The position numbers and the translations under genes were made by a program. A model generated the notes under the pieces. That model did no database searches, was not told the origin of the DNA, and worked only from the letters and a program-made list of their open reading frames with translations. Of a stretch of 64,000 bases of DNA, positions 56,853-62,537 are shown piece by piece. Every line of letters starts with the position of its first letter. The first letter of the stretch is position 1. The stretch is from Variovorax sp. (GTDB taxonomy: Bacteria; Pseudomonadota; Gammaproteobacteria; Burkholderiales; Burkholderiaceae_C): contig JANMHJ010000040.1 of assembly GCA_031375105.1 (NCBI GenBank), positions 37,798-101,797 of the forward strand, written 5' to 3'.

Positions 56853-57620
56853 TCATCGCGTAAAGCCTGTCGCCGCGCGGCCACTGCCCTTGGTCACCAT
56901 TGGGGGCACTTCGATCATGCCCATCTCGTCTAAAAACACGCTGGAGCGCGCCTCTTCTGTGGGCCAAGCCTGATCCCAACGATCTGGTTTTGCTGTACTT
57001 GATTTTTTCTTGGGCACATTGGCTTCGCGCAACTCCAACCGTGTGGCCTGCCATTCCGATTCGGGATGCTGCATCGACATCATTTGAGAATGCTGCTCGG
57101 CGGCTTGCAATTCAGGCATCACCATCGCGCGGATGGTTTTCGTGTCAGGCAAATCGTCACTGGTGATTTGCCAAATAGGAATTTGCGCCATCTCCAGTGC
57201 TTTGAGCTTGCGTTGCGTGCCCTCGGATGCCTGTCGTCCCGGCTTACCCGATTGCAACTGAATCACGCCCAGCACATCCCCCTGCTCAGAGCAGATCAAG
57301 AAATCCACGCAGCGTCGCCCCACGCTGCCAAACCATTGGTTGTAGGAGCGGTTTTGCGTCACGCTCAAGAATCGCGCGAGTGCAATCTGCGGCATCAAAA
57401 GGCATTCTGGCAATGCACGGCGCAGCAACACCAACACGCGCAGCTCGGCAGGTGTGAGTGGGCGCATCGTGCGCGGCTGCCAGTCGTCTAAGCGAAATGG
57501 CCGAACCTTGCCGCTGTGCACCACAGGCGCAGAGCGCTGCCACAAAACCCAAGTGATTGCAGCCAACCCAAGCACCACCAAAGCCGCCAGGGGCCAAACC
57601 CAAGTTGAGAGCATATTCAT
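56853..57620 (-). CDS. DUF2726 (NERD/restriction-endonuclease-like fold) membrane-anchored protein
   Basis: N-terminal TM helix, then …LRVLVLLRRALPECLLMPQIALARFL…WFGSVGRRCVDFLICSEQGDVLGVIQL… matching the DUF2726 pattern. Start set at the ATG at 57618-57620. Confidence 0.6.
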   Translation of the reverse strand: MNMLSTWVWPLAALVVLGLAAITWVLWQRSAPVVHSGKVRPFRLDDWQPRTMRPLTPAELRVLVLLRRALPECLLMPQIALARFLSVTQNRSYNQWFGSVGRRCVDFLICSEQGDVLGVIQLQSGKPGRQASEGTQRKLKALEMAQIPIWQITSDDLPDTKTIRAMVMPELQAAEQHSQMMSMQHPESEWQATRLELREANVPKKKSSTAKPDRWDQAWPTEEARSSVFLDEMGMIEVPPMVTKGSGRAATGFTR

Positions 57621-57749: not shown

Positions 57750-58973
57750 TTAACCCTTCACGCACACTACTTGCTTGAGCGTGTGCACCACGTCGACCAG
57801 ATCGCTTTGCGCCGCCATCACTGCGTCAATGTCCTTGTAGGCAGCAGGTGTCTCGTCAATCACGTCTTTGTCTTTGCGGCATTCCACGCCTTCTGTCGCA
57901 TTGCGGTGATCTGCCAGCGTGAAGCGGCGCTTGGCTTCGCCTCGGCTCATGATGCGCCCCGCGCCGTGTGAACACGATTCAAACGACTCCGGATTGCCTG
58001 TGCCGCGCACGATGTAGCTGCGCGCGCCCATGCTGCCGGGGATGATGCCCAACTGGCCTTTTTTTGCGCTCACTGCACCTTTGCGTGTGACGAATACGTC
58101 TTCCCCAAAATGCGTTTCCTTTTGCACATAGTTGTGGTGACAGTTCACCGCTTCGATATGCGATTGAAAACTCTTGTGGATCACAGTTTTCGCAGCATCA
58201 ATCACGCGGCGCATCATTACCTCGCGATTGGTGGCTGCAAACTTCTGCGCCCAGCCCACAGCGCGCACATAGTCGCCAAAATAACGTGCGCCTTCCTCGA
58301 AATAAGCCAGATCACGATCCGGCAGATTCGCGTTGTTGCGCAGCGCATCTTGCTTGGCCAGCTCGATAAACATCGTGCCGATGAAGTTACCCACACCGCG
58401 CGAGCCCGAATGCAGCATGAACCACACAAAGCCCGCTTCGTCTAGGCACACTTCAATGAAGTGATTGCCTGAGCCTAGCGTGCCCAAATGGTTGCGATGA
58501 TTCGTCTTGCCGATCTTCGGATAGTCTTTGCATAGCTCGGTGAATTCAGGCTCAAGTTGAGCCCAAGCCGTGTCCACCGAGCCCGGCACTTTATGCCAAG
58601 CCCCCGGATCACGCGTACCCGGCACTCGCCCATGCGGCACAGCGCGCTCAATCGCCGAGCGCAGCGGCGCCAGGTTGTCTGGCAAATCCTCCGCGCGCAG
58701 CGTCGTCTTCGCCGCCATCATGCCGCAGCCAATGTCAACACCGACAGCGGCGGGAATGATGGCTTTGATCGTCGGAATCACCGAGCCAATCGTCGCGCCA
58801 ATGCCGAAATGCACATCCGGCATCACCGCCACATGCTTAAACACAATTGGCAGCCGAGCCGCATTCGTCAGTTGACGACGCGCCTCATCCTCCACCGGCA
58901 CACCGCGCGTCCACATCTTAATAGGCACACCGCCGGGGGTTTGTTCTTCAATATAGTTAGTTTCCATGTCCAT
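57750..58973 (-). CDS. rtcB: RtcB-family RNA 3'-phosphate ligase
   Basis: RtcB motifs throughout (…MPDVHFGIGATIGSV…, …GSGNHFIE…, …HGAGR…). Start MDMETNY with AAGGAG RBS. Confidence 0.9.
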   Translation of the reverse strand: MDMETNYIEEQTPGGVPIKMWTRGVPVEDEARRQLTNAARLPIVFKHVAVMPDVHFGIGATIGSVIPTIKAIIPAAVGVDIGCGMMAAKTTLRAEDLPDNLAPLRSAIERAVPHGRVPGTRDPGAWHKVPGSVDTAWAQLEPEFTELCKDYPKIGKTNHRNHLGTLGSGNHFIEVCLDEAGFVWFMLHSGSRGVGNFIGTMFIELAKQDALRNNANLPDRDLAYFEEGARYFGDYVRAVGWAQKFAATNREVMMRRVIDAAKTVIHKSFQSHIEAVNCHHNYVQKETHFGEDVFVTRKGAVSAKKGQLGIIPGSMGARSYIVRGTGNPESFESCSHGAGRIMSRGEAKRRFTLADHRNATEGVECRKDKDVIDETPAAYKDIDAVMAAQSDLVDVVHTLKQVVCVKG

Positions 58974-59034: not shown

Positions 59035-60178
59035 TTAACGAAGCTTTACCAGCCCATTCAGCACCTGATCCAAACCTCCGAACACGGAGATCTTGTCGAT
59101 ACGCTCAGCCACGCGCTCCAGTGTCTCCAGCTCTTTCAGGCGCAGTGCGATGGGGTTGTCCTCCATCACCTTGGCCGTGTTGAGCAGAGAGCGAGTAGCA
59201 GCTGTTTCTTCGCGGCGGCGGATCACGTTGGCTTCAGCGGATTTACTCGCTTCCACCACCTGAGCGAAGATGGTTTTCATCTCGCCAGGCAGCACGATAT
59301 CTTTCACGCCCACGCTTTGGAGCTGTAGGCCTTGCGCGGAAAGCTTAGCGCGAACATGCCCGAGAACGACCTCGTCGATGACGGTTTTGTTCTCCAGCAG
59401 CTCGTCGAGCGTGCGCGTGCCAACGGCAGCGCGCAGGCCGAGCTGCAGCTCGCGATACAGATGCTCTGCTGGCTTGGCCAGTTGGGCAAATGCCTCACGC
59501 ACATCGGTGTAGCGCCACGTTGCAGACAGGTTCAGACGCAGGCCGACTTTATCGCGCGTCAGAATATCTTGCCCTGAAACTTCCAACGTTTGCAGACGCA
59601 AATCCACCAGCTCCACGGCCACTTGGCGGCCAAACTTCCAGAAAGCGTAAGCACCGGGTACGAGCAGCTTGTCAATCTTGCTGTCCACCGTGAGCACGCC
59701 CACGTTGTGTTCAGGCACTTGGCTCATGAGCAGGCCGGTGAGCCCCTGCACCGCGCGTTGGCGCAGTTGGGTTTGCGTCAGGCGCTGCGCGAGAGCAGCA
59801 GTGAGTTCAAAAGTCTCAACGATCTCCAGCACCTCGATGCGGACATCCACCAAGCCTTTCCAATACAGGCGGCGAGTAGCAGGCGCGAGGATTTCGACGA
59901 GGACGCCGTTTTCCACGCGCAGACCCACTTGCGTCTCCGTCAGTTCGACGCGCACGAACTCTTCAGCTACCACTTCAGGCTCTTTGGCCATGAGGTAGTC
60001 TGCCAAGCTGTGCGCGAAGGCGGTTTGGTCGATAGCAAAAGTATCGATGCGCAGCTTGTCAAAGCCCTCAAACAGCCAGTAGCGGCCAGGCTTCATGATG
60101 CGCTCGAAATCGCCATTGCGTAGCAAGATGCCGCGCTCGTTTTTCTTGATGGTCACACGTTTGAACATGTTGTTCTCC
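59035..60178 (-). CDS. SPFH/band-7 domain protein (cytoplasmic, no TM)
   Basis: MFKRVTIKKNERGILLRNGDFERIMKPGRYWLFEGFDKLRIDTF is SPFH-like, followed by a long coiled-coil C-terminus. AAGGAGA RBS 7 nt upstream of ATG 60178; 13-nt gap to rtcB. Confidence 0.7.
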
Positions 60179-60474: not shown

Positions 60475-60548
60475 AGTTTGGAACAGGAGTCGAACCTGCG
60501 ACAGACGATTTATCAGATCGTTGCTCTTACCAACTGAGCTATCCAGTG
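60475..60548 (-). pseudogene. Degenerate tRNA-Ile(GAT)-like gene (acceptor stem disrupted; no CCA)
   Basis: Canonical D-arm (TAGCTCAGTTGGTAAGAGC), anticodon arm (ACGAT-CTGATAA-ATCGT) and T-arm (GCAGG-TTCGACT-CCTGT). Only 4 of 7 acceptor pairs form (5' CACTGGA vs 3' TCCAAAC). The 5' end overlaps the CCA of the upstream minihelix by 2 nt. Confidence 0.4.
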
Positions 60549-60600
60549 GTGGTCATGGCGGGACTCGAACCCGCGCCTTACGGCACACCATGTCATGACC
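60547..60600 (-). other. tRNA-like minihelix (acceptor stem, T-arm and GNRA hairpin; no D or anticodon arm), CCA encoded
   Basis: GGTCATG-ACATGGTGT-GCC GTAA GGC-GCGGG TTCGAGT CCCGC-CATGACC-A-CCA. Perfect 7-bp acceptor stem, canonical T-arm, and a GTAA tetraloop hairpin in place of the anticodon arm. Confidence 0.3.
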
Positions 60601-60730: not shown

Positions 60731-60759
60731 GCGGTTGAACTAGTGCTTAGTTCAACCGC
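60731..60759. terminator. Perfect 12-bp-stem hairpin at the 3' end of the array-embedded HNH gene (terminator or processing site)
   Basis: GCGGTTGAACTA-gtgct-TAGTTCAACCGC. The HNH stop codon lies in the loop. Followed on the + strand by GATCCTTTT. Confidence 0.4.
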
Positions 60760-61319
60760 GATCCTTTTGGCAGGCGAGCTGCCAGCCATTCATGCACGTC
60801 GGCGCGAATGTGTCGACCTGCGAGTAGGAAGTCTTCGAAGCGGTTGGGCACATAGGGTGCGTAGAGCAGCGGCATACCGGCTTCTTCCGGTGTGCGCGCT
60901 GCTTTGCGTCCGTTGCATGCGCCGCAAGCTGTGACCAGATTCATCCAGCTCCATGCGCCGCCGCGTGATGCGGGCAGGATGTGCTCGCACTGCAGATCAC
61001 GCTCATGAAACTGGTCGCCGCAGTAAGCGCAGGTGAATCGGTCACGCCGAAACAGCTTGTGTTTACTGAAGCCGGGTACGATGTCAAACAAATTGACCCG
61101 TGCCGAGCCATGTAGCGCGATGATGGGATAGACCTCCAGTACCGAGGGCTTGCCGCGCGGCACATTGAAGCCGCCACGCAGCACAGCAAGCGGGCTCGCG
61201 CCCTCGCACCAAGCCACAGAATCTGCAGCCACATGCGTTGCCGCTTGTTCAAGAGAAATCCAAGCCTGCGGCGTGCCTTGAATATCGAGTTGCAGCACAT
61301 GGCTGCGATGGGTTTGCAT
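60747..61319 (-). CDS. HNH endonuclease embedded in the tRNA array
   Basis: CAYCGDQFHERDLQCEHILPASRGGAWSWMNLVTACGACNGRK HNH motif. AAGGAG RBS. Located between the tRNA-His gene and the minihelix. Confidence 0.75.
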   Translation of the reverse strand: MQTHRSHVLQLDIQGTPQAWISLEQAATHVAADSVAWCEGASPLAVLRGGFNVPRGKPSVLEVYPIIALHGSARVNLFDIVPGFSKHKLFRRDRFTCAYCGDQFHERDLQCEHILPASRGGAWSWMNLVTACGACNGRKAARTPEEAGMPLLYAPYVPNRFEDFLLAGRHIRADVHEWLAARLPKGSRLN

Positions 61320-61351: not shown

Positions 61352-61426
61352 TGGGTTGTTCAACCAGATTCGAACTGGTGTCTTCAGGGTCACATCCTGA
61401 AATGCTGCCGCTGCACCATGAACAAC
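61352..61426 (-). tRNA. tRNA-His (GTG), with G-1 and encoded CCA; non-host-like sequence
   Basis: G(-1)-TTGTTCA-TG-GTGC…; anticodon arm TCAGG-ATGTGAC-CCTGA; T-arm ACCAG-TTCGAAT-CTGGT; acceptor TGAACAA; C73; CCA. G-1:C73 is diagnostic for His. Confidence 0.65.
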
Positions 61427-61431
61427 ATATT

Positions 61432-61509
61432 TGGTATCTCGTGAAGGATTCGAACCCTCAACCCCCGACTTCGTAAGACGGTGCTCTGATTCCGTTGAGC
61501 TAACGAGAT
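61432..61509 (-). tRNA. tRNA-Arg (ACG), CCA encoded; A1-U72, AT-rich acceptor
   Basis: ATCTCGT-TA-GCTC…GAGC-A-CCGTC-TTACGAA-GTCGG-GGGTT-GAGGG-TTCGAAT-CCTTC-ACGAGAT-A-CCA. One T·T mismatch in the anticodon stem. Confidence 0.7.
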
Positions 61510-61518
61510 AAAAACTGA

Positions 61519-61591
61519 CGCCCCGAGAAAGTCTCGAACTTCCAACCTGCGGATTTCGAGGCCGCTGCTCTGCCAATTGAGCAATCGGGAC
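61519..61591 (-). tRNA. Class-I (short variable loop) tRNA with CGA (Ser-type) anticodon; no encoded CCA; identity uncertain
   Basis: GTCCCGA-TT-GCTC-AATTGGCA-GAGC-A-GCGGC-CTCGAAA-TCCGC-AGGTT-GGAAG-TTCGAGA-CTTTC-TCGGGGC-G. Full cloverleaf but a 5-nt variable loop, which is incompatible with canonical tRNA-Ser. Confidence 0.45.
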
Positions 61592-61595
61592 ATAT

Positions 61596-61671
61596 TGGCG
61601 TCTCTTATCGGAGTCGAACCGATGGCTTTCTCCTAGACAGGGAGACACTCTGGCCACTGAGTTAACGAGAC
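61596..61671 (-). tRNA. tRNA-Asp (GTC), CCA encoded; pyrimidine at position 37
   Basis: GTCTCGT-TA-ACTC-AGTGGCCA-GAGT-G-TCTCC-CTGTCTA-GGAGA-AAGCC-ATCGG-TTCGACT-CCGAT-AAGAGAC-G-CCA. One G·A acceptor mismatch. Confidence 0.6.
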
Positions 61672-61677
61672 GAAAAT

Positions 61678-61752
61678 TGGCAAACCGCAGGGGTATCGAT
61701 CCCCTCTCTACAGATTGAAAGTCTGCTGGCCACACCTGCTGCCTCGCGGTTC
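61678..61752 (-). tRNA. tRNA-Glu (TTC)-like, CCA encoded; unusual A54 T-loop (ATCGATA)
   Basis: GAACCGC…GCAGA-CTTTCAA-TCTGT-AGAG-AGGGG-ATCGATA-CCCCT-GCGGTTT-G-CCA. The acceptor pairs include a G1·U72 wobble. Confidence 0.5.
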
Positions 61753-61757
61753 ATAAA

Positions 61758-61835
61758 TGGTCTGGGTGGCTGGCTTCGATCCAGCGGCCTCCTGCTTCCA
61801 AAGCAGGCCGTCTACCTGACTGACATTACACCCAG
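61758..61835 (-). tRNA. tRNA-Pro (TGG)-like, CCA encoded; C1-G72, extra nucleotide at 8-9, A54 T-loop
   Basis: CTGGGTG-TAA-TGTC-AGTCAGGTA-GACG-G-CCTGC-TTTGGAA-GCAGG-AGGCC-GCTGG-ATCGAAG-CCAGC-CACCCAG-A-CCA. Confidence 0.5.
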
Positions 61836-61841
61836 AAAAAT

Positions 61842-61918
61842 TGGTGCCCCAGGGGAGATTCGAACTCCCAGAATCCTGTGTCTGAGACAGGCATGTATGC
61901 CGGTTCCATCACCGGGGC
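61842..61918 (-). tRNA. Class-I (short variable loop) tRNA with CAG (Leu-type) anticodon, A73, CCA encoded; identity uncertain
   Basis: GCCCCGG-TG-ATGG…ACAT-G-CCTGT-CTCAGAC-ACAGG-ATTCT-GGGAG-TTCGAAT-CTCCC-CTGGGGC-A-CCA. First gene of the array (promoter-proximal). Confidence 0.45.
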
Positions 61919-61936
61919 GTGAAGTGTTGTGATTTC

Positions 61937-62076
61937 ACTTCGGCTGTGTCCACACGCGAAGACCCGCACATGCGGATCAAACTGTTCGCTGCACAGGCAA
62001 GAGCGACTTGCATGCACATGCGCTGCATCGCAGTTTGCGAGAATTCGAGCAGCGTGGTGTGTGGGCACACCCGAAG
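61937..62076. ncRNA. Structured leader or putative ncRNA upstream of the tRNA array: about 22-bp inverted repeat arms flanking about 100 nt rich in internal palindromes
   Basis: CACTTCGGCTGTGTCCACAC (61937-61956) matches the reverse complement of GTGTGTGGGCACACCCGAAGTG (62055-62076). The interior holds GCGAAGACCCGCACATGCGG…, TGCATGCA and related palindromes. Confidence 0.3.
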
Positions 62077-62195
62077 TGAAACGGCGTTTGATCTAACGAT
62101 CAAAACAGCCGAACTTCTTTTCAACAAATTGTTAAAGAACAGTGACGCATTTGCACAATGCAAAGCTGCGCCCTCATGGCACGATGACCACGATG

Positions 62196-62239
62196 AAAAA
62201 AGACAACAAAAAAGCCCGATCTCGTTTCCAAGACCGGGC
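62196..62239 (-). terminator. Orphan Rho-independent terminator on the minus strand, upstream of the tRNA-array promoter region
   Basis: Minus strand reads GCCCGGTCTTGGAAACGAGATCGGGC followed by TTTTTTGTTGTCTTTTTT. No convincing minus-strand ORF lies upstream of it. Confidence 0.5.
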
Positions 62240-62537
62240 CTACAGAGGTAGGTGAAGACGGTACGTGAGTTACACGTGACCCTCGCCCGGTGGGGCTGAA
62301 TAATCCAATGCCTTCGGCTCAAAGCCTAGGCGCGAGCTATGCATGACATTCAGCCGCGCACAGCCACACCAAGCCTGAGCGGCTAAGCGTGTGGGGGATG
62401 CGATACGGTTAAACATATGAAGCTCTTGAAAAAATTAAAATGCAGAAAACTGCGATAGAACGTAATGTAAAGACTCTTTACTGGATCGTCAACATCTGCG
62501 ACAATTATTTTTTGATTTCGTTGCGAATTTTCAACAC

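What the first reader, a model, noticed from the sequence alone, without database searches (positions are those of the whole stretch)
61842..61918. Class-I tRNA carrying a Leu-type CAG anticodon with A73
The anticodon arm CCTGT-CTCAGAC-ACAGG pairs perfectly and gives CAG. The variable loop is 5 nt (ATTCT), so this is not a type-II tRNA-Leu. The A73 discriminator matches Leu identity, and bacterial LeuRS relies on A73 and tertiary core rather than the long arm. It could still be leucylated, or it could be a functional mimic.
Basis: seen in the sequence. Interest (0 to 1): 0.65.

Follow-up and report, generated by a model that had tools for sequence, protein, structure and literature searches.

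The report
Short-arm leucine tRNA in repair operon
This is a real leucine-type tRNA gene that lacks the usual long extra arm; it belongs to a large, little-discussed lineage common in phage tRNA clusters, and here it opens a spare-tRNA operon attached to an RNA-repair cassette.

Summary
On the minus strand, 61918..61842 encodes a 74-nt tRNA plus CCA, with anticodon CAG, a 5-nt variable loop (AUUCU) and A73 (ARAGORN; Rfam tRNA 54 bits).

It is not a one-off or a decayed gene. It aligns collinearly with E. coli tRNA-Leu(CAG) apart from a clean 10-nt gap at the variable arm. It keeps the Leu-type D-arm, A14, A15:U48, G18G19 and A73.

A search blind to the anticodon found 115 such short tRNAs in viral contigs, and 114 carry Leu anticodons. 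The cloverleaf shows strong covariation: 99% of cells paired, and 18 of 20 pairs with compensatory changes. A model built only from the viral copies scores the window gene 86.7 bits, against 60 or less for class II Leu tRNAs.

About 250 cultured phage genomes match a T5-like copy and, where annotated, call it tRNA-Leu. At least 169 of these are full-length.

In the window it is the first of seven tRNAs. These are followed by an HNH gene, a tRNA-like pair, a Band-7 protein, RtcB and DUF2726. This arrangement recurs across Burkholderiales.

It is most likely leucylated and reads CUG as a spare tRNA during translational stress. Charging is inferred, not shown. It is a new member of a known kind, of moderate interest.

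The parts
61842..61918 (-). Class-I-format tRNA-Leu(CAG): 74 nt plus encoded CCA, 5-nt variable loop AUUCU, A73, A37. This is the finding.
   Evidence: ARAGORN; Rfam tRNA 54 bits; 86.7 bits with model R1, built only from viral class-I Leu tRNAs; collinear with E. coli leuV except for a 10-nt V-arm gap.
61936..62078 (-). Conserved structured leader RNA of about 140 nt directly 5' of the tRNA-Leu: a 17-bp closing stem plus three hairpins.
   Evidence: RNAfold -89 kcal/mol, z=-6.6. Conserved in 35 of 82 Band-7 loci, strand-specific: 72-141 bits on the sense strand against 28-45 on the antisense. 14 of 33 pairs have compensatory changes. No Rfam family.
62212..62241 (-). Terminator-like hairpin upstream of the leader; probable end of the preceding transcription unit.
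   Evidence: Consensus scan only.
61758..61835 (-). tRNA-Pro(UGG) with C1:G72, A73 and CCA; T loop AUCGAAG.
   Evidence: ARAGORN; Rfam 50 bits.
61678..61752 (-). tRNA-Glu(UUC), G73, CCA; atypical D arm and T loop AUCGAUA.
   Evidence: ARAGORN. In Rfam only a weak tRNA-Sec-model hit, 33 bits.
61596..61671 (-). tRNA-Asp(GUC), G73, CCA, with U37 in the anticodon loop (CUGUCUA).
   Evidence: The U37 loop is shared by 12 of 22 array tRNA-Asp genes.
61517..61592 (-). tRNA-Trp body whose anticodon reads CGA in this strain (C35 to G SNP at window 61557); called 'Ser' by ARAGORN.
   Evidence: The near-identical contigs L004 and L006 have CCA (Trp) at the same gene. It is the only difference within the array.
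61432..61509 (-). tRNA-Arg(ACG), A73, CCA.
61352..61425 (-). tRNA-His(GUG) with encoded G-1 and C73.
60747..61319 (-). HNH endonuclease gene (190 aa) embedded between the array and the tRNA-like pair.
   Evidence: Pfam HNH_5 1e-15. The same gene is called in L004-L006.
60547..60600 (-). tRNA-like minihelix (acceptor plus T arm, ending CCACCA) abutting the next element.
   Evidence: Sub-threshold Rfam hits: tmRNA ends 31.6 bits, mascRNA 30.3 bits.
60476..60547 (-). Band-7-associated tRNA-like RNA (b7a-tRNA position). It has an Ile-type GAU anticodon arm but only a 4-bp acceptor stem.
   Evidence: ARAGORN; Rfam aligns only model positions 4-67. An equivalent element lies about 300 nt upstream of Band-7 in most loci, with varied or abnormal anticodons. 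The concept is described in bioRxiv 10.1101/312249.
59035..60168 (-). Band-7/SPFH (slipin-family) protein, 377 aa.
   Evidence: Pfam Band_7 8e-30. 76-94% identical homologues among the listed best hits, from Burkholderiales where named.
57750..58973 (-). RtcB RNA ligase, about 407 aa.
   Evidence: Pfam RtcB 2.6e-127; gene call in L004.
56853..57620 (-). DUF2726 protein; last gene of the cassette.
   Evidence: Pfam DUF2726 3e-10; gene call in L004.

Best explanation
It is a functional tRNA-Leu gene of a distinct short-variable-loop (class-I-format) lineage. It keeps every leucine identity feature that does not lie in the long arm: A73, A14, the A15:U48 Levitt pair, G18G19 in a Leu-type D arm, and U54:A58. 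Host LeuRS, which does not read the anticodon, most likely charges it with leucine, and it then decodes CUG. It is the first of seven tRNAs. By arrangement these appear to be transcribed with a structured leader RNA, an HNH gene, a tRNA-like pair, a Band-7 protein, RtcB and DUF2726. The operon most likely acts as a spare-parts and repair kit for translation. When housekeeping tRNAs are depleted or cut (by tRNase toxins, phage attack or translation-blocking stress), the array supplies fresh tRNAs, some with atypical anticodon loops, and RtcB religates broken ones. Shown here: gene structure, family membership, covariation, the coupling of this body to Leu anticodons, and the recurring operon linkage. 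Inferred: expression, co-transcription, processing, leucylation, and the stress or backup role.
For: It is a real tRNA.

The body is Leu-type. It is collinear with E. coli leuV tRNA-Leu(CAG), with one 10-nt gap at the V arm and shared U8, G9, G12, G13, A14, A15, G18, G19, A21, A23, C24 and A73.

The family is real and constrained. An anticodon-blind pattern in IMG/VR returned 115 matches, 114 with Leu anticodons. The discriminator is A in 121 of 123, and position 48 is U in all 94 distinct sequences of the first extraction. On 49 sequences the cloverleaf is 99.1% paired, against 64% in shuffles and 34-46% when slid. 18 of 20 pairs show compensatory changes.

Membership was tested independently. 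Model R1, built from viral sequences only, scores the window gene 86.7 bits. Class II Leu tRNAs score 38-60, every other tRNA 53 or less, and the other window tRNAs 37.6 or less.

The two formats look equivalent. Band-7/RtcB arrays carry either a class II or a class-I Leu for a given anticodon, never both. Ser and Tyr tRNAs in the same arrays keep long arms. That matches synthetase rules, because only LeuRS can dispense with the arm.

Cultured phages carry it. 252 records match the class-I tRNA-Leu of the T5-like phage S124 at E<=1e-5, and 169 of them cover at least 80% of it. They include T5-like and FelixO1-like phages of E. coli and Salmonella.

There is a precedent for leucylation of a bacterial type I tRNA-Leu (PMC6614811).

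Operon context: Pfam and recurrence in 80 genomes. L-arrays with HNH and rtcB neighbours are induced by translational stress in Anabaena (PMC8421152). CUG is 30% of Leu codons in the window ORFs.
Against: There are no expression, processing or charging data for this gene or any array copy. E. coli LeuRS failed to charge the Streptomyces type I tRNA-Leu(CAA) in vitro (PMC6614811), so a proteobacterial LeuRS may not accept a short-arm substrate. Position 37 is A, not the G (m1G37) found in E. coli tRNA-Leu(CAG). This could affect reading-frame maintenance, or it could mean a non-standard role. Some neighbouring array tRNAs look impaired: the Trp anticodon is mutated to CGA in this strain, and the Glu and Pro T loops begin with A. 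Relaxed selection on the array cannot be excluded. The array region is, however, more conserved than its flanks between strains (2 differences in 2 kb, against 30 mismatches and 8 gaps over the 6.6 kb shared with L004).
Confidence: 0.65

Rival explanations
1. It is a non-translational tRNA: a decoy or sponge for tRNA-targeting nucleases, or an RNA cofactor or substrate of the Band-7/RtcB machinery. It would be produced with the operon but not used by ribosomes.
For: The operon demonstrably contains tRNA-like RNAs that cannot be charged: the b7a-type element with a 4-bp acceptor stem and a minihelix. It also has a conserved non-tRNA leader RNA. A sponge role for array tRNAs was proposed for Anabaena (PMC8421152). 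Array tRNAs often have odd anticodon loops (U37 in Asp, C33 in several). A decoy would also need to keep the anticodon.
Against: Unlike the b7a element, this gene keeps a perfect 7-bp acceptor stem, A73, an encoded CCA and the complete set of LeuRS tertiary determinants. These are conserved across about 90 diverged copies, with compensatory changes. A pure decoy would not need A73 or A15:U48. The same lineage is kept in lytic phages with no Band-7/RtcB genes nearby.
Confidence: 0.17
2. It is a horizontally acquired, phage-derived passenger gene, now neutral or decaying in this genome. It is a structurally intact relic rather than a working part of host physiology.
For: The closest relatives of its acceptor and T arms are in viral contigs; L089 has identical acceptor and T stems. 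The HNH gene inside the array suggests mobility. A sister tRNA (Trp) carries an inactivating anticodon SNP in this strain. Many Band-7/RtcB loci have no array at all.
Against: The array is linked to Band-7/RtcB in dozens of genera, with conserved order and the same leader RNA. The array region is more conserved than its flanks between strains. The class-I Leu shows compensatory evolution among the bacterial copies themselves: window and L016 against L070/L075, L086, L084 and L072.
Confidence: 0.12
3. It is a degenerate pseudogene: a class II tRNA-Leu that suffered a deletion of its variable arm and is non-functional.
For: It is collinear with class II tRNA-Leu, with a single clean 10-nt gap.
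Against: The short format is ancient and maintained. Dozens of diverged copies all have a 5-nt loop ending in U48, intact stems and covariation. It is identical in four independent assemblies.
Confidence: 0.03
4. It is a recoding tRNA: a non-Leu tRNA body that acquired CAG and inserts another amino acid at CUG codons.
For: A class I format is normal for the 17 non-Leu/Ser/Tyr isotypes. CAG is one mutation from Gln, Val, Met, Arg and Pro anticodons. The neighbouring Trp body with CGA shows that anticodon SNPs do occur here.
Against: The D arm, A73 and A15:U48 are Leu-type, not Gln, Val or Met-type. Family members carry all six Leu anticodons and essentially nothing else. There is no G3:U70 (Ala) and no long arm (Ser). 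From established identity rules (reviewed in PMC9976931; applied here from my own knowledge), the other synthetases require their own anticodon bases.
Confidence: 0.02

Closest known systems
Short (74-77 nt) tRNA-Leu genes annotated in cultured phage genomes: T5-like Epseptimavirus such as Salmonella phage S124, Felixounavirus, Aeromonas, Vibrio and Gordonia phages
   Same: The same architecture and clear homology: Leu-type D arm, a 5-nt variable loop ending in U48, A73 and a Leu anticodon. The window gene scores 86.7 bits with a model built only from viral copies.
   Different: The phage copies mostly read UAG, CAA or UAA anticodon classes; CAG is rare (2 of 115). They sit in phage tRNA clusters, whereas the window copy is chromosomal and tied to Band-7/RtcB. 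Phage T5 itself has an 85-nt class II Leu(UAG) next to its tRNA-Ala and tRNA-Ser genes, as in S124.
Streptomyces coelicolor type I tRNA-Leu(CAA) (Fan et al. 2019, PMC6614811)
   Same: A natural bacterial tRNA-Leu with a short variable loop that coexists with type II isoacceptors. It was shown to be leucylated by the single host LeuRS.
   Different: Actinobacterial housekeeping gene with anticodon CAA. Its charging depends on a Streptomyces-specific LeuRS leucine-specific domain, and E. coli LeuRS did not charge it. Homology to the window gene was not tested because the sequence was not at hand.
Canonical bacterial type II tRNA-Leu(CAG), e.g. E. coli leuV/P/Q
   Same: Anticodon, A73, D-arm sequence and tertiary-pair nucleotides; collinear alignment.
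   Different: It lacks the roughly 15-nt variable arm, and it has A37 instead of G37.
Long tRNA arrays (L-arrays) with HNH and rtcB neighbours (Santamaria-Gomez et al. 2021, PMC8421152)
   Same: A head-to-tail tRNA operon of non-housekeeping tRNAs, linked to an HNH endonuclease gene and RtcB. In Anabaena it is silent until translational stress.
   Different: This array is short (7 tRNAs plus a tRNA-like pair) and physically fused to a Band-7/RtcB/DUF2726 cassette with a conserved leader RNA. Regulation is unknown.
[quoted passage not shown]
   Same: RtcB sits next to a Band-7 protein and a tRNA-like RNA. tRNA-like RNAs are proposed to assist RNA ligation.
   Different: The finding is not the b7a element; that is at 60547-60476. 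It is a complete, chargeable-looking tRNA further upstream.

Membership tests
tRNA (Rfam RF00005) | Cloverleaf with 7-bp acceptor, D, anticodon and T arms, scoring at or above the gathering score of 29 bits | tested here: met
   54.0 bits, E=7.5e-10, model positions 1-71; ARAGORN call.
tRNA (Rfam RF00005) | Universal nucleotides U8, A14, G18G19, U33, G53-U54-U55-C56, A58 | tested here: met
   All present, read directly from the sequence.
Canonical bacterial type II tRNA-Leu | Leu anticodon (NAG or YAA) | tested here: met
   CAG.
Canonical bacterial type II tRNA-Leu | Discriminator A73 | tested here: met
   A73 followed by CCA.
Canonical bacterial type II tRNA-Leu | Long variable arm (more than 10 nt, stem-loop) | tested here: not met
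   5-nt loop AUUCU; a 10-nt gap relative to E. coli leuV.
Canonical bacterial type II tRNA-Leu | Leu-type D arm (3-bp stem, A14, A15, G18G19 placement) and the A15:U48 tertiary pair. These are the E. coli LeuRS determinants listed in PMC6614811. | tested here: met
   The alignment with leuV shows the shared D-arm nucleotides; U48 is present.
Canonical bacterial type II tRNA-Leu | G37 (site of m1G37) in CUN-reading isoacceptors | tested here: not met
   The loop is CUCAGAC (A37), against UUCAGGU in E. coli leuV. A37 is also the rule in array Leu(CAG) genes, 15 of 20 being CUCAGAA.
Class-I-format tRNA-Leu lineage of phage tRNA clusters and bacterial arrays (defined here) | Scores with the lineage-specific covariance model above class II Leu and all other tRNAs | tested here: met
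   With R1, built without any bacterial sequence: window 86.7 bits, class II Leu 60.2 or less, non-Leu 53 or less.
Class-I-format tRNA-Leu lineage of phage tRNA clusters and bacterial arrays (defined here) | 5-nt variable loop ending in U48, A73, Leu anticodon | tested here: met
   In the family, U48 in all 94 distinct sequences of the first extraction, A73 in 90 of the 91 kept after filtering, and Leu anticodons in 90 of those 91. The window has AUUCU, A73 and CAG.
Class-I-format tRNA-Leu lineage of phage tRNA clusters and bacterial arrays (defined here) | Aminoacylation with leucine | not testable with these tools
   No biochemical data. Supported only indirectly, by conserved identity elements and the S. 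coelicolor precedent (PMC6614811).
Streptomyces type I tRNA-Leu(CAA) | Sequence homology to ScotRNA-Leu(CAA), and dependence on a Streptomyces-type LeuRS leucine-specific domain | not tested
L-array tRNA operon (PMC8421152) | Head-to-tail array of extra tRNA genes with HNH and RtcB genes in the neighbourhood | tested here: met
   Seven tRNAs with 2-6 nt spacers, HNH at 60747-61319 and RtcB at 57750-58973. Related loci carry up to 20 tRNAs.
L-array tRNA operon (PMC8421152) | Silent under standard conditions and induced by translational stress | not testable with these tools
   No expression data.
b7a-tRNA (Band-7-associated tRNA-like RNA) | A tRNA-like RNA immediately upstream of the Band-7 gene in a Band-7/RtcB operon | tested here: not met
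   That position is occupied by the element at 60547-60476. The finding lies 1.5 kb further upstream and, unlike the b7a element, has a full acceptor stem.

The most novel reading that the evidence does not exclude
Loss of the long variable arm is an adaptive escape device. Phages and bacterial spare-tRNA operons would keep a leucine tRNA stripped of the class II arm (and of G37) so that it stays chargeable by LeuRS but is invisible to tRNA-targeting toxins or immune nucleases that recognise type II tRNAs or the m1G37 context. The Band-7/RtcB operon, with its unreported conserved leader RNA, would then be a dedicated 'replace and repair' system for translation under attack.
Probability: 0.15. 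Interest if true: 0.7.

Novelty: new member of a known kind. Interest (0 to 1): 0.35.

Why it matters
Textbooks, and the one paper found on the subject (PMC6614811), treat bacterial tRNA-Leu as almost always type II and present Streptomyces as a rare exception. The data here show that a short-arm tRNA-Leu lineage is widespread in phage tRNA clusters. It is also found repeatedly in proteobacterial tRNA arrays wired to an RtcB RNA-repair cassette. If these tRNAs are charged by ordinary proteobacterial LeuRS, that changes the picture of how LeuRS recognises its substrate. It would also offer a compact natural scaffold for engineered leucine or suppressor tRNAs. If they are resistant to tRNA-cleaving toxins, they become part of the phage-host arms race over tRNAs. 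For genome annotation, the practical message is that a 74-77 nt tRNA-Leu call in such contexts is not an error.

Tried and rejected
Single-sequence RNAfold of the tRNA gave a non-cloverleaf minimum-free-energy structure with z=-1.3. This is uninformative for tRNAs, so I relied on covariance models and covariation instead.

A BLAST of the array against the plasmid collection found only the RtcB/Band-7 genes in Burkholderia and others, with a single odd tRNA-like RNA upstream and no array.

A PADLOC scan of RtcB, Band-7, HNH and DUF2726 found no known defence system; HNH gave only generic matches. NCBIfam added nothing specific.

Literature searches for a description of phage or array class-I tRNA-Leu found only the Streptomyces paper. 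The phage tRNA evasion paper does not mention variable arms, and the bacterial Schlafen paper reports no type II specificity. Burroughs and Aravind 2016 could not be retrieved, so b7a-tRNA is cited second-hand.

I expected phage T5 itself to carry the class-I form. It has an 85-nt class II Leu(UAG) instead, although many T5-like relatives have the short form.

I considered a derivation from tRNA-Gln, Val or Met by anticodon mutation and rejected it, because the D arm, the discriminator and the family anticodon spectrum are all Leu-type.

The metagenome scan was not used, because the viral and genome collections gave enough.

Full report
**Observation**

The window's minus strand from 61918 to 61842 reads GCCCCGGUGAUGGAACCGGCAUACAUGCCUGUCUCAGACACAGGAUUCUGGGAGUUCGAAUCUCCCCUGGGGCACCA. 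ARAGORN calls it tRNA-Leu(CAG), 77 nt. The Rfam tRNA model gives 54 bits against a threshold of 29, E=7.5e-10.

Reading the cloverleaf directly gives:
- a 7-bp acceptor stem;
- a 3-bp D stem with A14, A15, G18, G19 and A21;
- a perfect 5-bp anticodon stem with loop CUCAGAC;
- a 5-nt variable loop AUUCU;
- a standard T arm, then A73 and an encoded CCA.

The only correction is the strand. An RNAfold of the isolated sequence does not give the cloverleaf, which is normal for tRNAs and carries no weight.

**It is a leucine tRNA body without the long arm**

Aligned with E. coli leuV tRNA-Leu(CAG), which I fetched as a comparator, the window gene is collinear from end to end. There is one clean 10-nt gap, exactly at the variable arm.

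It shares the Leu-type D arm (U8, G9, G12, G13, A14, A15, G18, G19, A21, A23, C24) and A73. U48 is present, so the A15:U48 pair can form. [quoted passage not shown] All of these are present except the variable-region feature, which does not apply to a 5-nt loop.

One departure is A37 in place of the G37 of E. coli tRNA-Leu(CAG).

**It belongs to a large, constrained lineage**

Among 80 genomes fetched through the neighbouring Band-7 protein, several arrays carry homologous short Leu tRNAs:
- L016 (CAG);
- L070, L075 and L086 (UAG);
- L084 (two copies, CAG);
- L072 and L073 (CAG) and L010 (UAG), all three missed or miscalled by ARAGORN.

I then scanned IMG/VR with a pattern that fixes only the Leu-type D loop, the T loop and class-I spacing, and leaves the anticodon free. 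It returned 115 matches:
- 114 carry one of the six Leu anticodons (UAG 55, CAA 39, UAA 12, AAG 3, GAG 3, CAG 2);
- the discriminator is A in 121 of 123 when the bacterial copies are included;
- position 48 is U in all 94 distinct sequences of the first extraction.

On an alignment of 49 diverse members, the short-loop cloverleaf is 99.1% paired. Column shuffles give 64%, and sliding the partners gives 34-46%. Compensatory changes occur at 18 of 20 pairs, and 324 doubly changed cells compare with 83±8 in shuffles.

A caveat: sequences were pre-filtered for at least 6 of 7 acceptor pairs, but this removed only 3 of 123. The anticodon and T stems were not filtered.

A covariance model built from 44 viral sequences only was then searched over about 1 Mb of bacterial loci plus the window:

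| Target | R1 score (bits) |
|---|---|
| Window gene (second best overall) | 86.7 |
| Class II Leu tRNAs of other arrays | 38-60 |
| All non-Leu tRNAs | 53 or less |
| The window's other tRNAs | 37.6 or less |

This is an independent membership test, and it is met.

**Already present, and annotated, in cultured phages**

BLAST of the window gene and of family members against 50,697 phage genomes finds 74-78 nt genes annotated 'tRNA-Leu'. Hosts include Gordonia, Vibrio, Aeromonas, Leptolyngbya and Providencia.

The copy from the T5-like Salmonella phage S124 (74 nt, anticodon TAG) matches 252 records at E<=1e-5. 169 of these cover at least 80% of the query, and the full-length hits listed span 77 nt in the record, so they carry no long-arm insertion. 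They are mostly T5-like and FelixO1-like phages of E. coli and Salmonella.

Phage T5 itself has an 85-nt class II Leu(UAG) next to its tRNA-Ala and tRNA-Ser genes, as in S124. The two formats therefore seem to replace each other at comparable positions. The bacterial arrays show the same thing: no locus has a class I and a class II Leu with the same anticodon.

In contrast, Ser and Tyr tRNAs in the arrays always keep their long arms. That is what one expects if these tRNAs must still satisfy their synthetases. From established identity rules (reviewed in PMC9976931; my own application of them), SerRS and bacterial TyrRS use the arm and LeuRS does not.

**Genomic setting**

The gene is the first of seven tRNAs separated by 2-6 nt: Leu-CAG, Pro-UGG, Glu-UUC, Asp-GUC, a Trp body, Arg-ACG and His-GUG with G-1/C73.

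Downstream on the same strand lie:
- an HNH endonuclease gene;
- a tRNA-like minihelix abutting a tRNA-like RNA with a GAU anticodon arm but only a 4-bp acceptor stem;
- a Band-7/slipin protein;
- RtcB;
- a DUF2726 protein.

The last tRNA-like element corresponds in position to the 'b7a-tRNA' predicted by Burroughs and Aravind, as summarised in bioRxiv 10.1101/312249.

Band-7 homologues are 76-94% identical among the listed best hits; where a source is named it is Burkholderiales, such as Caenimonas, Rubrivivax, Aquabacterium and Brachymonas. Upstream tRNA arrays of up to 20 genes are common in those loci and in some Gammaproteobacteria.

This matches the 'L-array' concept. In cyanobacteria, HNH and rtcB are recurrent neighbours, and the Anabaena array is induced together with rtcB under translational stress (PMC8421152).

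Array tRNAs often have unusual anticodon loops: U37 in 12 of 22 Asp genes, C33 in several, and A37 in Leu-CAG. This recalls the anticodon-loop changes by which phage tRNAs are proposed to evade anticodon nucleases (PMC10264068).

CUG makes up 30% of Leu codons in the window's ORFs, so a CAG tRNA would serve a major codon.

**Mechanism proposed**

Shown: the gene is an intact tRNA of a conserved Leu-type, short-loop lineage, embedded in a recurrent tRNA/Band-7/RtcB operon.

Inferred: it is transcribed with the operon, processed by the usual tRNA-end processing enzymes, charged by LeuRS, and used to read CUG when the normal tRNA pool is damaged, while RtcB reseals cleaved RNAs.

I put 0.65 on this overall. 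I put more than 0.9 on 'real tRNA of this lineage' and about 0.7 on leucylation.

The main counter-evidence is that E. coli LeuRS did not charge the Streptomyces type I tRNA-Leu (PMC6614811), together with the complete lack of expression data.

**Rivals**

- A non-translational decoy or cofactor role (0.17). This fits the b7a element better than this gene, which conserves A73, CCA and the LeuRS tertiary determinants.
- A neutral phage-derived passenger (0.12). The Trp anticodon SNP supports it, but the array is linked to Band-7/RtcB across genera and is more conserved than its flanks between strains (2 differences in 2 kb, against 30 mismatches and 8 gaps over 6.6 kb).
- A pseudogene (0.03). 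This is contradicted by the family-level conservation.
- A recoding tRNA (0.02). The Leu-type body and the all-Leu anticodon spectrum contradict this.

**Novelty**

Short tRNA-Leu genes are already annotated in hundreds of phage genomes. A bacterial type I tRNA-Leu has been characterised in Streptomyces. tRNA arrays next to HNH and RtcB, and Band-7-associated tRNA-like RNAs, have also been described.

This gene is therefore a new member of a known kind.

What I could not find in the searchable literature is any recognition that the short-arm Leu lineage is widespread in phages and in proteobacterial RtcB-linked arrays. That gives the finding moderate interest.

**Side observation**

Directly 5' of the tRNA-Leu lies a structured RNA of about 140 nt (window minus strand 62078-61936; RNAfold z=-6.6). 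It is conserved and strand-specific in 35 of 82 Band-7 loci and has compensatory changes in 14 of 33 pairs.

It is often flanked by tRNA-Gly and tRNA-Glu, so tRNA processing would release it. It is absent from Rfam. It may be the most novel item in this locus.

Noticed in passing
window 61936-62078 (- strand); also L007 3670-3806, L015 1642-1779, L016 4077-4220 and about 30 further loci: A conserved structured RNA of about 140 nt lies directly upstream of the tRNA array. It has a 17-bp closing stem (CACUUCGGGUGUG...ACAGCCGAAGUG) around three hairpins, with near-invariant junction motifs GGGAUGUGC, GUGCAGCGAG and CUCGCG. It is found strand-specifically in 35 of 82 Band-7/RtcB loci and shows compensatory changes. 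It is often flanked by tRNA-Gly and tRNA-Glu, so tRNA processing would release it. There is no Rfam match. It is a candidate new ncRNA of the Band-7/RtcB system.
   Followed up: partly
window 61517-61592 (- strand), SNP at 61557: The gene ARAGORN calls tRNA-Ser(CGA) is a class I tRNA-Trp body (G73, Trp-like sequence) whose anticodon is CCA in the near-identical contigs L004 and L006 but CGA in the window and L005. This single C35-to-G change is the only difference within the tRNA array region between these strains. It is probably an inactivating mutation rather than a serine tRNA.
   Followed up: yes
window 60476-60600 (- strand): A tandem of two tRNA-like RNAs lies just upstream of the Band-7 gene. 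The first is a 54-nt acceptor/T-arm minihelix ending in CCACCA. It abuts a tRNA-like RNA with an Ile-type GAU anticodon arm but only a 4-bp acceptor stem, in the position of the predicted 'b7a-tRNA'. Similar tandems ('tRNA-???' followed by a tRNA) occur in L012, L070, L075 and L084. The anticodon of the element nearest Band-7 differs widely between genomes.
   Followed up: partly
window 61596-61671 (- strand) and array tRNAs in L007-L086: Array tRNAs often break anticodon-loop rules. tRNA-Asp(GUC) has U37 (loop CUGUCUA) in the window and in 12 of 22 array copies. Several Glu, His, Ile and Pro copies have C33 instead of U33. Array Leu(CAG) genes have A37 rather than G37. This could reflect resistance to anticodon nucleases, but that was not tested.
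   Followed up: partly
window 61678-61835 (- strand): The tRNA-Pro and tRNA-Glu of this array have T loops beginning with A (AUCGAAG and AUCGAUA) instead of U54. The Glu gene is picked up in Rfam only by a weak tRNA-Sec-model hit (33 bits). Both may be structurally atypical or impaired.
   Followed up: no
L007, L014-L019, L021, L024, L025, L032, L043, L058, L063, L067, L081 (array tRNA-Leu genes): The class II tRNA-Leu(CAG) genes of most Comamonadaceae/Sphaerotilaceae arrays start with C1:G72 (CCCCUCG...CGAGGGG-A) rather than the G1:C72 of E. coli tRNA-Leu. They form a tight family distinct from housekeeping Leu tRNAs.
   Followed up: no
L202 (phage T5, NC_005859 24000-42000): The T5 tRNA region is annotated with several HNH endonuclease genes and 'tRNA-like stable RNAs with unknown functions' interspersed among the tRNAs. 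This mix of tRNAs, HNH genes and structured or tRNA-like RNAs parallels the window's operon.
   Followed up: no
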